This document shows, piece by piece, positions 41,090 through 60,900 of a stretch of DNA of 64,000 bases (its first letter is position 1; each line of letters begins with the position of its first letter). The notes below the pieces were generated by a model. That model saw only the letters and a program-made list of their open reading frames with translations, was not told the DNA's origin and searched no databases. This stretch comes from Chitinophaga pinensis (GTDB lineage: Bacteria; Bacteroidota; Bacteroidia; Chitinophagales; Chitinophagaceae): positions 137,379 through 201,378 of the forward strand of contig CALSBI010000010.1 of the NCBI GenBank assembly GCA_943373145.1, read 5' to 3'. The position numbers and the translations under genes were made by a program.

Positions 41090-41902
41090 TTACTGCCCAT
41101 GCAGCGTCAATACCACGCCCGGCCGCACGTTGATACTTGCCCCGGTTTGTAGGCGCAGGCTGCGTATGGTTGCATTGCCAAATACAATGGGCATACGGAT
41201 GGCCCCTGCGGGAATGACCACAATACTGTTGATGCCGGGCGTACTACCACAGTCCCAGTTGGCTGCATCTTCCCATACCACGCTGCGGTTACCATTCCAT
41301 ATCAAAGTGTCGCTACAGATACCAAGGTTCAGTCGATCGCCCTTCCATGCGTCCTCACCCTTACCCGTACCACCATTATATAAACTGTCCAGCATATATA
41401 AAGCAACATGGGTTTTCACTTGTACAAAACCATTGCCTGTTCCGCCATTGTACAGGCTATCGCTGATGTACAAAGCTGCTTGTAGGATAGATGTTTTTGC
41501 AAAGCCATTTGCCATGCCACCATTGTACATACTATCACTGATGTATAAAGCCGCTTGCGGAATGGACGTTTTGATAAAGCCATTGGCCATGCCACCATTA
41601 TACATACTATCACTGATGTACAAAGCCGCTTGCAGTGTGGAAGTTTTGGTAAAGCCATTGCCCATACCACCATTGTACATACTATCTGCCAAACCCAGTA
41701 TATTGCCCATGGCCGTAACCTTACCAAAGCCATTGGCCGTTCCGCCATTGTACAGGCTATCGGTTACCGATAGTGTTATACCCATGGTATTTGCATGGCC
41801 GTTACCATTGGCCATGCCGCCTAGGTAAGGCACTTGTGCATCTGCCGATATGGGCAGCAACAGCAGCATATATATAACAGGGTAACGCCACATATACATC
41901 AA
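41090..41902 (-). CDS. secreted YNGG-repeat protein carrying the shared ~70-aa C-terminal module
   Basis: It has a signal peptide and 5-6 tandem 26-aa units (DSMYNGGMANGF.KTS..QAALYIS; 78-bp DNA period, about 41395..41790). The C-terminus is WNGNRSVVWEDAANWDCG...LRLQTGASINVRPGVVLTLHGQ. It overlaps the upstream gene by 4 nt. Confidence 0.8.
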   Translation of the reverse strand: MMYMWRYPVIYMLLLLPISADAQVPYLGGMANGNGHANTMGITLSVTDSLYNGGTANGFGKVTAMGNILGLADSMYNGGMGNGFTKTSTLQAALYISDSMYNGGMANGFIKTSIPQAALYISDSMYNGGMANGFAKTSILQAALYISDSLYNGGTGNGFVQVKTHVALYMLDSLYNGGTGKGEDAWKGDRLNLGICSDTLIWNGNRSVVWEDAANWDCGSTPGINSIVVIPAGAIRMPIVFGNATIRSLRLQTGASINVRPGVVLTLHGQ

Positions 41903-57962: not shown

Positions 57963-60900
57963 CTAATTCGTCCCGTTCAGCTTCAGCTCAAACCCTGAAC
58001 CTACGGTAACCGAGGCACCCGTTCTTACGGTAAGGGTTTTGATTTCCACGTTTTGGTTGATCACCGGATAGTTGGGAACACTGCTCCTGATGATTACGGT
58101 TGAAGTGGCAGTGGGCACATTGCCACAGGCCCAGTTGCCGGCCGTATTCCAATCGGTGTTTACCGCACCAATCCATTCGCTGGTAGTGGTAGGCCGCACA
58201 TGCACGGTAACAAAAGCCGTATCGGTACAACCCGTTGCCAAATTGCTAAATACTACTTGGTAAATGCCCGAATCCAATGAAGATACATTGGTGAGTGTGG
58301 GGTTTTGCAAGGTGGAAGTAAAGCCGTTGGGGCCTGACCATGCATAACCTACTGTGGCAGGCGCAAAGCTAATGCACTGACCAGCAGTTAACGATGCTGT
58401 ATTGAAAGAATACTGGACGGCAGCGGTACTGGTCCACTGTAAGCCCACAGTGGCAGTTACACCTAAATCTTGGGTTGCGTTGCCAAACAGCACATCATCG
58501 TACACATAGTGTATCAGTCCACTCGCAGTATCCAACTGTATTTGGAACTTCACGGTACCGGTTAAGAAATCATTGTGTGCTGTATTGCTGTATTGGATGA
58601 TGAACTTGGTGCCCACCGTATCCAGCTTGATATTGGTTGCGGGGCCAGTTGTGGCAATATCCAAATCATCCCACCAAGGCATCAACAAAATATTACCGGC
58701 TGTATTGGCCGTAGTAGGCAATGCAGCGTTGGCGGTTGTAATATCCCCACTGGTAGAACCCAATGCTACCGCACCGTTCATGCCTACACGGGCCGTGGTA
58801 TAAGTTACCCCGTTGAATGTAAACTGTGGCATACCGATATTATGCTCCGAATCATCCGACAGCACTGTAATGCTGGTGACTGTAGGGTTGGCATCAATAT
58901 CAATGAAAGCTTCCGTGCCCGCAGGGTTCATGCTATACCCTACACTAGCCGATGAAGTAAGGTTCACATTGCCGCCGATACAAACCGTATCGGGTGTGGC
59001 CGTGGCCGTAATATTGGCCGGTTGTGGGTTCACGTTCAACAACACAATAATCGATGTGTCGAAGCAACCTGTAACACCATCAGTAATTTTTACCCTATAA
59101 GATCCCGCTGTACCCGTTGCATAAGTGGCGCTGGTGGCACCGCTGATGGCCACATTGTTGCGCAGCCAAGCAAAAGCAGGTGTGGCAGCATTGGTGCCGG
59201 CGGCACTGAATGTTTGCGTACCCGGCGCACAAATGGTAAGTGGACCAGCAGGCGTAACAGGCACCGTTGGCTTGGCCACAATGGTAATGGCTATCACCGA
59301 AGAAGAATCAACCGATGCACTGGTTGGGCAAGCCACAGCCAGTCTGTAATAAGTAGTGGTGGTAATGGCCGGGCTAATGGTATAAGCGGAAGGCGTTGTT
59401 GCACCACCGATTGCCGTCCATGGGCCAGTGGCGCTGGGGCCAGATACCCATTGGTAAGTGGTGCCCACTCCGGTAGAATATCCTGAAACGGAAATGGTAC
59501 CGGTATAGCTTACGCAGCCAAAAGCACTGCCCACTCCCAAGCCGCCAATGGCTTCCGAACAAGGAATTGAAGCAAATTCATCCACACCCATATCCGGCGT
59601 GGTAGCACTCCTGGTATCGCCGTCAATATCCGTAGTTACAGCGGCCAGTGCTGTACCCAAATTGTCCAATGCTACGTTATTGCCGTTATCCAAATGAAGG
59701 TCGATATTGGAGATAAAGGTTGGTAACACATTGATGGAGTTGGCCTCCTGTGCCGTAGCCGCTTGCCATGCCGCCAACGTGGTATTGTTTACCGCATTGA
59801 ACCTACCGATGTTGTTGGTAACATTGGTGGCATTGCAATAGAGGTTGTTGTAATTGAGCGTAGTACCTGCCAAAGTAGTAGCTGGGGTGTAGTAAGCCCA
59901 GAAGTTACCGCCCGCAGTACCACTCGATCCGGTTATGCTGAAGATATTGTTCCGTACATCTATATTGGTGCCAATTGCCGTGATATTGCCATCGCCATTG
60001 GCAAAGGCTGCTGCCAAACCGCTTGCGCTATTGGCCAATTGGCCGGCAAGATGCACCGTGTTGTTGTAAAACCTATCGCCATAACCCGCACCGGCCAAGA
60101 TACCTGTTACATTCCAAACAGCACTGGTGCCGGTGGAAGTGATATTAGAGATGGCGTTGTTGTAAATCAAAGCATTGGATGGATTGCCCACCGTTGTATA
60201 GCTGGAGCTGGTTAGTGCAATACCATAGTACTTGGGTGAGGAAGTGCCCGTGTAGCTCATGCTATGTATCTTGTTATTATAAGCTTGGCCATTTTTAAAG
60301 TCCAGCAGCCTGATACCAAATACATTGCTCGCTGTAGTAGCATTGGTTATGTTCCGTATTTCATTACCCGATACAACCATGTTTTCTTGCCTATCGGCAT
60401 AAATGCCAGTCAGCGCAAATCCTTCACCTGCTGTAGCCGTACCAAAGTTGTTGTTGCTCACCACATTGTTCTGATCGGGTGATGCAGCCACGTAGCCAAA
60501 CAAGGCCAAACCATGCTGCGTTTTGCGGAACAGGTTATTGGTAATGGTATTGTTGTTGTTCCTTTCCGCACCTATAGCCGAAAGGCTGATGGTGGTATTG
60601 CCGCCCACATACATACCCAAGAACGAAGTGGTAGCTGAATTACCTTCAATAACGCAGTTCTTAACTGTGTTAAAGGTACCGCCATTGCCCGTAGCAGGCG
60701 CAGCGATCCAAACTACGGCATTGCCCGTTGTAGTAGCGGTAGTATTTTGGATGGTCAGGTTCCTGCTGTTGGTATTGTTGTTGCTACCTTCGATGGTAAC
60801 ATAATCCGCACCGTTCAGTTTAATGATGGAACCTGCACCCACAGCACCGGTTATCAATGGGCTGATACCCGTAGCCGGTTTAATGGTCAATGTATTGGTA

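What the first reader, a model, noticed from the sequence alone, without database searches (positions are those of the whole stretch)
41090..58185. A ~70-aa C-terminal module shared by three secreted proteins and distinct from the T9SS tails in the same window
Three proteins end in a collinear module. They are the YNGG protein (DNA 41090..41310), the 2463-aa protein (46810..47030) and the protein of more than 2000 aa (57963..58185). The pattern is W.G......W...ANW.CG..P......V(V/I)I......(Y/M)P(V/I)......I(K/R)(S/T)L.(L/V)..GA(S/T)(V/I).V..G..L.L.G, always followed directly by the stop. Three other secreted proteins in the window (14710.., 23579.., 56095..) end in a canonical T9SS type-A CTD (..NP....(hydrophobic)...G.Y......). 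The organism therefore uses T9SS, yet tags these three proteins differently. The module could be a new sorting or attachment signal, or a docking module for a shared partner. W.G....W....NW segments usually open beta-helical passenger regions, so finding one as the extreme C-terminus is odd.
Basis: seen in the sequence. Interest (0 to 1): 0.75.

Follow-up and report, generated by a model that had tools for sequence, protein, structure and literature searches.

The report
Beta-helix starter module used as tail
Three exported proteins really do end in the same ~75-residue module, but it is a very common beta-helix "starter" block of Bacteroidota surface proteins that usually sits at the front or inside a protein, so it is not a dedicated sorting tail, although its use as the last domain of proteins lacking a T9SS tail is a recurrent, unexplained architecture.

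Summary
Observation confirmed. Three minus-strand genes (41090..41902, 46810..54201, 57963..>63998) end in a homologous ~75-aa module followed directly by a stop. Three other proteins in the window carry T9SS type A tails. The module is not a T9SS tail: it gives no type A, B or C model hit, no profile-profile similarity, and has a different predicted fold. It is the cap plus first rungs of a small right-handed beta-helix, like the start of Amnionless beta-helix 1 and of Pfam G8. It matches 12,667 representative proteins, with up to 11 copies per protein. About 95% of 492 located copies are N-terminal or internal, including one in a Flavobacterium RemA-family adhesin. 46 of 57 complete proteins with non-terminal copies end in a type A T9SS tail. 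About 5% of copies do end a protein at the same module boundary. They form several conserved clades on unrelated proteins (LTD giants, a GH81 glucanase, SprB-repeat proteins), all without a T9SS tail. The most likely role is a folded end-piece whose open beta-helix base could dock end-on. That role is inferred. Moderate interest.

The parts
41093..41329 (-). C-terminal module of p1 (last 79 codons; the W.G core begins about 41299)
   Evidence: Alignment A1; HMM hit E=4e-43; BLASTP against the p2 module E=1e-20
46813..47049 (-). C-terminal module of p2 (last 79 codons)
   Evidence: AF2 model of the last 84 aa has pLDDT 91.3. Foldseek best match is Amnionless 6gje_A. Weak PF14828 hit at aa 2399-2455
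57966..58202 (-). C-terminal module of p3 (last 79 codons)
41090..41902 (-). p1: 270-aa exported protein with a signal peptide, 25-aa DSxYNGGxxNGF repeats and the terminal module
   Evidence: No Pfam or NCBIfam hit
46810..54201 (-). p2: 2463-aa exported giant protein (fn3-like, internal G8-like beta-helix, GBD_T9SS_assoc, LTD, Ig-like, terminal module) with no T9SS tail
   Evidence: Same length in four cluster members
57963..63998 (-). p3: more than 2011 aa, N-terminus beyond the window; repetitive beta-helix-like regions, Ig-like domains and the terminal module; no T9SS tail
   Evidence: Homologue P0135 (1999 aa) is collinear to the same stop
52627..52764 (-). Internal G8-like beta-helix start in p2 (aa 480-525), a distant relative of the module in the usual non-terminal position
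   Evidence: Pfam G8 at 18.5 bits, below the cut-off; weak local HMM hit
46751..46786 (-). Terminator hairpin plus U run after p2
   Evidence: -28.5 kcal/mol, z -7.3
57806..57843 (-). Terminator hairpin plus U run after p3, shared with the convergent gene
   Evidence: -23.3 kcal/mol, z -6.5
14722..14946 (-). T9SS type A tail of the 2714-aa SdrD_B-repeat protein (contrast)
   Evidence: PF18962 39.3 bits; TIGR04183 48.8 bits
23615..23815 (-). T9SS type A tail of the 741-aa protein (contrast)
   Evidence: PF18962 46.9 bits; TIGR04183 37 bits
57364..57597 (+). T9SS type A tail of the 503-aa fibre-like Peptidase_S74 protein (contrast)
   Evidence: PF18962 27.8 bits; TIGR04183 31.8 bits

Best explanation
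The shared tail is one copy of a widespread, so far poorly annotated structural module. It comprises the tryptophan-rich N-terminal cap (W.G....DW...A.NW) plus the first two to three rungs of a small right-handed beta-helix. This is the same start as Amnionless beta-helix 1 and the Pfam G8 domain. In Bacteroidota, and some other phyla, the module opens each ~300-600-residue unit of giant Sec-exported surface proteins. Most of those proteins are T9SS cargo with a type A tail.

In p1, p2 and p3 the polypeptide stops exactly where the conserved module ends. These proteins therefore finish in a short beta-helix stub and have no T9SS tail.

Shown: homology of the three copies; the family's size and positional distribution; the fold class; the lack of any relation to T9SS tails; and conservation of the terminal position and boundary in homologues and in unrelated protein types.

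Inferred: the terminal copy is a folded end-piece, not a translocation signal. It has an N-cap but nothing covering its last rung. Its open base is therefore available for end-on beta-helix association with itself or a partner, as Amnionless beta-helix 1 does with cubilin. On this reading its likeliest job is attachment, oligomerisation or simple termination of the rod-like protein. How these tail-less proteins cross the outer membrane is not explained.
For: Homology and significance.

Family size: 12,667 representative proteins at E<=1e-3, 1,959 at E<=1e-10, and up to 11 copies per protein.

Positions: 467 of 492 copies are N-terminal or internal and 24 are terminal. The median spacing between successive copies is 419 aa, and conservation ends at the ...L.(V/I)NG glycine where terminal copies stop.

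T9SS association: 46 of 57 complete ORFs with non-terminal copies match PF18962, and 2 match CHU_C. A copy lies inside the T9SS type A substrate chain 8gl6_D at aa 889-962 (E=1.4e-14; PMC10994853).

Fold: the AF2 model has pLDDT 91.3. Foldseek's best match is 6gje_A Amnionless (probability 0.98, TM 0.60), followed by very weak matches (E>=4.7) that include other beta-helix proteins. PF14828 N-terminal positions 7-68 match, above the cut-off on some copies. G8 is above the cut-off on P0034. The A3 profile hits 6gje_A residues 8-63.

Not a T9SS tail.

Terminal architecture conserved: p2 and p3 homologues are collinear to the same stop. The module is 55-64% identical between paralogue families against about 30% elsewhere. 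16 of 24 terminal copies have another terminal copy as nearest neighbour.

Open-ended beta-helices dock end-to-end: PMC6283879.
Against: No experiment or co-evolution signal shows any partner. No conserved neighbouring gene follows terminal-module genes. The docking role rests on analogy with one eukaryotic complex and on a predicted structure of an isolated 84-aa fragment. The Foldseek E-value is only 0.17.

The sample of copies is biased. The top 150 hits favour multi-copy giants, and the genome loci favour copies similar to the query. The 5% terminal fraction is therefore rough.

Terminal modules sit on unrelated cargo types (GH81 enzyme, BACON, SprB repeats, LTD). That is also what a portable sorting tag would look like.
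Confidence: 0.62

Rival explanations
1. The terminal module is a new C-terminal export or attachment signal. It would be either a fourth kind of T9SS-targeting tail or a tag for another route, and it would replace the type A tail on a subset of cargo.
For: All terminal-module proteins scanned have Sec signal peptides where the N-terminus is known, and they contain domains typical of T9SS cargo (GBD_T9SS_assoc, LTD, SprB repeats, BACON, CBM35, GH81). None has a type A, B or C tail. The tail is portable across unrelated proteins and ends at a fixed boundary. It is the best-conserved segment between paralogue families. There is precedent for atypical tails: the type C tail of ChiA (PMC10202324).
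Against: 95% of copies are not C-terminal, and they co-occur with a true type A tail in the same protein. Terminal and internal copies share the same conserved core, with no terminal-specific motif. The fold class is a beta-helix start, not the Ig-like sandwich that binds PorV/SprA (PMC10994853). There is no profile similarity to T9SS tails. About a third of terminal copies are nearest to internal copies, which implies repeated independent origins rather than a specialised signal lineage.
Confidence: 0.13
2. The terminal modules are vestiges. The genes lost their distal beta-helix and T9SS tail through truncation at a unit boundary, and the stub has no function of its own.
For: The module normally starts a longer unit, so a stop right after it is what truncation at a repeat boundary would leave. 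All terminal cases outside the window come from MAGs or metagenomes.
Against: Three independent genes in one 64-kb window end identically. Homologues in other assemblies keep the same stop. The module is more conserved than the rest of the proteins. Strong terminators follow directly. Long intact reading frames of 1,200-2,500 aa lie upstream, with signal peptides.
Confidence: 0.12
3. The terminal stub is a docking cap for a specific trimeric beta-helical partner that carries a T9SS tail, giving piggy-back export or surface tethering. A candidate partner is a fibre-like protein such as the adjacent 503-aa Peptidase_S74 protein. The arrangement would be analogous to Amnionless-cubilin or PAAR-VgrG.
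For: The best structural match is the pyramid-shaped Amnionless beta-helix 1, whose open base docks on a three-chain beta-helix. A fibre-like protein with an S74 trimerisation chaperone, a coiled coil and a type A tail lies convergent to p3.
Against: This is purely analogical. No conserved gene neighbourhood exists in other genomes. No interaction was modelled or measured.
Confidence: 0.08

Closest known systems
Amnionless beta-helix 1 (N-terminal part of Pfam PF14828; PDB 6GJE chain A)
   Same: It has the same sequence start (W..NW....P...V.I). Pfam profile positions 7-68 match module copies, above the gathering cut-off for P0040 and P0145. It is the best Foldseek match of the AF2 model (probability 0.98, TM 0.60). 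It is a small three-faced right-handed beta-helix whose open base docks end-to-end on another beta-helix (PMC6283879).
   Different: It is a eukaryotic membrane-receptor subunit. There the element is N-terminal and is followed by a second beta-helix, an SEA domain and a TM helix. The window copies score below the Pfam cut-off (14.2 bits against 30.4). The Foldseek E-value is only 0.17.
G8 domain (Pfam PF10162)
   Same: The first 40-70 of its 124 profile positions align with the module plus the following rungs. P0034 passes the cut-off (42 bits). One relative is named 'G8 domain-containing protein' by NCBI. p2 has a weak internal G8 hit.
   Different: G8 is about 120 aa with eight conserved glycines. 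The terminal copies stop after about 75 aa and give no G8 hit at E<=0.1.
T9SS C-terminal sorting domains: type A (TIGR04183/PF18962), type B (TIGR04131/PF13585 CHU_C), type C (NF033708, ChiA)
   Same: They share the extreme C-terminal position, a size of about 70-100 aa, all-beta structure, occurrence on Sec-exported Bacteroidota surface proteins, and portability across cargo types.
   Different: There is no model hit at E<=1, while the controls hit. hhalign gives probability 0.06%. The predicted fold is a beta-helix start rather than an Ig-like sandwich. Most copies are not C-terminal and coexist with a real type A tail.
Internal module of the Flavobacterium johnsoniae RemA-family adhesin (PDB chain 8gl6_D)
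   Same: It belongs to the same module family (E=1.4e-14, aa 889-962 of 1436). The host is a mobile or secreted T9SS type A adhesin (PMC10994853).
   Different: The copy there is internal and unresolved in the structure. The protein ends in a type A tail.

Membership tests
T9SS type A CTD (TIGR04183 / PF18962) | Match to the family HMM at or above the curated cut-off | tested here: not met
   No hit at E<=1 (NCBIfam) or at E<=0.1 (Pfam) on whole proteins or on 100-aa tails. The positive controls in the same window score 31.8-48.8 bits.
T9SS type A CTD (TIGR04183 / PF18962) | Seven-stranded Ig-like beta-sandwich fold | tested here: not met
   The AF2 model (pLDDT 91.3) matches Amnionless first. 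Its remaining matches are very weak (E>=4.7) and include beta-helix proteins but no T9SS tail. hhalign against an alignment of 57 protein tails (46 of them T9SS type A) gives probability 0.06%.
T9SS type A CTD (TIGR04183 / PF18962) | Restricted to the extreme C-terminus of the cargo | tested here: not met
   Met for p1-p3, but 467 of 492 family copies are N-terminal or internal.
T9SS type A CTD (TIGR04183 / PF18962) | T9SS-dependent export and removal by PorU | not testable with these tools
   Needs secretion assays and proteomics.
T9SS type B CTD (TIGR04131 / PF13585 CHU_C) | Match to the family HMM | tested here: not met
   No hit. CHU_C is present in the Pfam library used (it hit 2 of 57 tails).
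T9SS type C CTD (NF033708, ChiA type) | Match to the family HMM | tested here: not met
   No hit at E<=1. The model is in the library (it appears).
Amnionless-type beta-helix 1 (PF14828 N-terminus) | Match to the N-terminal profile positions | tested here: inconclusive
   The p2 tail scores 14.2 bits against a cut-off of 30.4. Family members P0040 (53.6 bits) and P0145 (32.2 bits) pass. Only positions 7-68 of 442 are matched.
Amnionless-type beta-helix 1 (PF14828 N-terminus) | Small right-handed three-faced beta-helix fold | tested here: met
   Foldseek's top hit is 6gje_A with probability 0.98 and TMq 0.60. This rests on a predicted structure and an E-value of 0.17.
G8 domain (PF10162) | About 120-aa domain with eight conserved glycines, and an HMM match at the cut-off | tested here: not met
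   The terminal copies are about 75 aa and give no G8 hit. The internal p2 stretch scores 18.5 bits against a cut-off of 22.9. Relative P0034 scores 42 bits.

The most novel reading that the evidence does not exclude
The terminal beta-helix stub is a functional C-terminal tag. A pyramid-like, open-based beta-helix would dock end-on to a beta-helical partner or to a T9SS/outer-membrane component. That would give tail-less cargo (giant adhesins, a GH81 glucanase, BACON and SprB-repeat proteins) a CTD-independent route to export or surface tethering in Chitinophagaceae and relatives.
Probability: 0.15. Interest if true: 0.75.

Novelty: new variant of a known kind. Interest (0 to 1): 0.4.

Why it matters
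First, a module found in more than 12,000 representative proteins, mostly T9SS cargo, has no Pfam or NCBIfam model of its own. It is picked up only marginally by the eukaryote-centred G8 and Amnionless models. A dedicated model would improve annotation of the giant surface proteins of Bacteroidota.

Second, a conserved set of apparently extracellular-type proteins ends in this stub and lacks any known T9SS tail. That raises a concrete, testable question: how are they exported or anchored? If the stub docks on a partner, it would be a new way of attaching cargo in this phylum. If it does not, the finding is an ordinary case of domain shuffling.

Tried and rejected
1. The word-indexed protein search with the module returned nothing useful. 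The 3-, 14- and 150-sequence alignments gave 0, 10 and 9 hits, all short fragments. These hits served only as rows for the structure-prediction alignment.

2. Single-sequence AF2 of the last 196 aa of p2 failed (pLDDT 35).

It was repeated with A1.

4. Idea: the conserved Cys in 'NW.CG' marks terminal copies, for example for an intermolecular disulfide. Rejected. Many internal copies carry the same or a nearby Cys, and no column separates terminal from internal copies beyond clade effects.

5. Idea: a conserved partner gene lies downstream. Rejected. The neighbours differ in every locus.

6. Idea: read-through or a split gene continues the beta-helix. Rejected. Terminators and unrelated genes follow.

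7. A metagenome search for p2 homologues with a T9SS tail swapped in place of the module found only four distant LTD proteins. One had a T9SS tail and none had the module, so the result is inconclusive.

8. Idea: the p1 operon (FGE-sulfatase-like, p1, 677 aa, 418 aa) is a gldK/L/M/N-like set. Not supported. There are no family hits, and p1 is a secreted repeat protein.
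Full report
**Observation**

The finding's coordinates are the 3' ends of three minus-strand genes.
- p1 is 41090..41902 (270 aa). It has a signal peptide and six 25-aa DSxYNGGxxNGF repeats.
- p2 is 46810..54201 (2463 aa).
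- p3 is 57963 to beyond 63998 (>2011 aa; its N-terminus lies off the window).

Their last 79 residues align without internal gaps. p2/p3 share 57% identity and p2/p1 40%. BLASTP of the p1 module against the p2 module gives E=1e-20. Between p2 and p3, strong similarity in the last 500 residues is confined to the last 91 (55%, E=4e-29).

An HMM of the three copies finds only these three strong hits in the six-frame translation of the window. It also finds a weak internal stretch in p2.

The stops are genuine. Strong terminator hairpins with U runs follow p2 and p3 (z -7.3 and -6.5). Downstream genes are unrelated: a histidine kinase and response regulator after p2, and a convergent gene after p3. 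The p2 sequence occurs with the same length in four members of its cluster.

The three comparison proteins (14710.., 23579.., 56095..) carry T9SS type A tails above the Pfam and NCBIfam cut-offs.

**What the module is not**

NCBIfam gives no hit at E<=1, and Pfam gives no T9SS-tail hit at E<=0.1. This holds for the whole proteins and for their last 100 residues. The same NCBIfam library hits TIGR04183 on the three control tails and contains the type C model NF033708. The Pfam library contains CHU_C. A profile of 150 module copies compared with an alignment of 57 protein tails, 46 of them T9SS type A, gives an hhalign probability of 0.06%. The module is therefore not an ordinary type A, B or C tail.

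**What it is**

Pfam gives weak hits of the p2 tail to the first ~60 positions of Amnionless (PF14828). An internal p2 stretch gives a weak hit to the start of G8 (PF10162). On other family members these hits pass the curated cut-offs:
- G8 at 42 bits on P0034.
- Amnionless at 53.6 bits on P0040 and 32.2 bits on P0145.

AlphaFold2 on the last 84 residues of p2 with a 20-row alignment gives pLDDT 91.3. A single-sequence run had failed. Foldseek against the PDB puts Amnionless (6gje_A) first, with probability 0.98 and TM 0.60. The remaining matches are very weak (E>=4.7) and include other beta-helix proteins; no T9SS tail appears. The 150-sequence profile aligns to residues 8-63 of the 6gje_A chain.

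Amnionless beta-helix 1 is a small, inverted three-faced pyramid. Its open base docks end-to-end on the three-chain beta-helix of cubilin. The authors note that uncapped beta-helix ends tend to associate (PMC6283879).

The module is thus the N-terminal cap plus the first two to three rungs of a right-handed beta-helix.

**Distribution**

A full HMMER search of 1.84 billion representative proteins with the three-copy profile finds 12,667 proteins at E<=1e-3 and 1,959 at E<=1e-10. Proteins carry up to 11 copies.

In the 150 best hits, re-scanned locally, there are 696 copies. Most sit directly after the signal peptide or inside the protein. The median spacing between successive copies is 419 residues. 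Conservation ends at the glycine of ...L.(V/I)NG, which is exactly where the terminal copies stop.

A scan of one genome per species returned 493 confirmed relatives, of which the 80 best-matching loci were kept. These are mostly from Bacteroidota: Chitinophagaceae, Ferruginibacter, Hymenobacter, Spirosoma, Flavobacteriaceae, Bacteroidales and Prolixibacteraceae. A few come from Gemmatimonadota, Verrucomicrobia and other MAGs. The closest matches to the window are in Chitinophagaceae and Ferruginibacter MAGs. In those loci, 111 copies are non-terminal, 10 lie within 12 residues of a real stop, and 11 are cut by contig ends.

Of 57 complete ORFs with only non-terminal copies, 46 end in a T9SS type A tail and 2 in CHU_C. 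One copy lies inside the RemA-family type A substrate deposited as chain 8gl6_D (aa 889-962, E=1.4e-14; PMC10994853).

The module is therefore a hallmark building block of T9SS cargo. It is not an alternative to the T9SS tail.

**What remains interesting**

Pooled over the sets, 24 of 492 well-covered copies (about 5%) end a protein. The sampling is biased, so this fraction is rough. These copies stop at profile positions 73-78, always at the same boundary.

Sixteen of the 24 have another terminal copy as nearest neighbour, although terminal copies are only 5% of the set. They define at least three clades...ELKLNG(T)N...TGFNLTITK and ...GVVLNVLK. The other eight are nearest to internal copies, which implies repeated independent origins.

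Homologues of p2 (P0142, P0114/L001, L073) and of p3 (P0135, P0087) are collinear to the same stop. Between the two paralogue families the module is 55-64% identical, against about 30% for the rest.

The host proteins are heterogeneous:
- LTD/GBD_T9SS_assoc giants (p2).
- A YNGG-repeat protein (p1).
- A GH81 glucanase with CBM35 and BACON domains (L009).
- A BACON protein (L012).
- A DUF4082/SprB-repeat protein (L074).

None has a T9SS tail. Several proteins carry the module both right after the signal peptide and at the very end (P0119, P0132, P0072, P0076, P0040). Terminal and internal copies share the same conserved core. No terminal-specific motif was found, and the 'NW.CG' cysteine is also common internally. 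No conserved neighbouring gene follows terminal-module genes.

**Interpretation**

The best-supported reading is that p1-p3 belong to a minority architecture. A giant or modular Sec-exported protein ends in a short beta-helix stub instead of a longer beta-helix unit plus T9SS tail.

Shown:
- homology of the copies;
- their distribution;
- the fold class;
- the absence of T9SS-tail features;
- conservation of the terminal boundary.

Inferred: the stub is a folded end-piece. Its uncapped base could mediate end-on association with itself or with a partner, by analogy with Amnionless-cubilin. The route of these proteins across the outer membrane is unexplained.

Rivals:
- A genuinely new export or attachment tag. 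The portable tail on diverse cargo-like proteins speaks for it. The internal majority, the lack of a terminal-specific signature and the different fold speak against it.
- Vestigial truncation. Conservation, intact long ORFs, terminators and three parallel cases in one window speak against it.
- Specific docking on a trimeric beta-helical, tail-bearing partner such as the adjacent S74 fibre-like protein. This is pure analogy.

**Novelty and score**

The module's relationship to G8 and Amnionless is detectable with existing models, so the kind is known. The family has no dedicated Pfam or NCBIfam model. I did not find the tail-less terminal-stub architecture described in the few papers I searched and read. 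I rate it a new variant of a known kind, with interest 0.4. It is not negligible, because the terminal architecture is real, conserved and raises a testable export question.

Noticed in passing
window 14513-14565, 33457-33509, 40882-40940, 43575-43925, 54373-54600, 57629-57962: Many intergenic regions carry arrays of tandem heptamer repeats of several sequence types: CGTTGAC/CGTTGGC, CTGGATA, ATCTGCT, AACTTTC, ACTTGAT and CAGCATC. CAACGGYCAAC with at most one mismatch occurs 30 times against 3.3 expected, always on the minus strand. From my own knowledge, this is reminiscent of cyanobacterial STRR heptamer repeats. The meaning here is unknown.
   Followed up: partly
window 41445-41686 (minus strand, inside p1): p1 contains 75-nt (25-aa) tandem repeats with the motif DSxYNGGxxNGFxK (3.2 copies at 85% identity by TRF; about six are recognisable in the protein). 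They have no Pfam or NCBIfam match.
   Followed up: partly
window 37682-43500 (minus strand): This looks like an operon. A 533-aa secreted FGE-sulfatase-domain protein has a stop that overlaps the p1 start. It is followed by p1, then by 677-aa and 418-aa signal-peptide proteins with no family hits. A gldK/L/M/N-like reading was considered and is not supported.
   Followed up: partly
window 56095-57606 (+): A 503-aa protein combines a glycine-rich fibre-like N-terminal part, a Peptidase_S74 intramolecular chaperone domain (known from phage tail spikes and fibres), a glutamine-rich coiled coil and a T9SS type A tail. It is convergent with p3. It is a phage-fibre-like T9SS cargo protein.
   Followed up: partly
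window 55419-55599: A 40/41/81-bp tandem repeat (about 4 copies) sits in an AT-rich intergenic region. Each unit contains a short palindrome (GGCTACTAAGTAGCC).
   Followed up: no
tails of ORFs in the L001-L080 genome-locus set (individual loci not identified) and of several P00xx representative proteins: A second recurrent tail, not of T9SS type, occurs among module-bearing proteins...(T/S)GSN..(A/P)..GGNGP(T/S)(L/F)(T/S)...(G)A.(V/I).WP/WQ*. It had no Pfam hit reported. It is possibly another uncharacterised C-terminal domain.
   Followed up: no
L082 and L083 (metagenome loci), ORF tails: Two LTD-containing giant proteins end in an identical-looking tail...YY(I/L)V(I/V)KHRNS(I/L)ETWSK.PVTFTSVTTFDFTQ*. 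It is neither the module nor an obvious type A T9SS tail.
   Followed up: no
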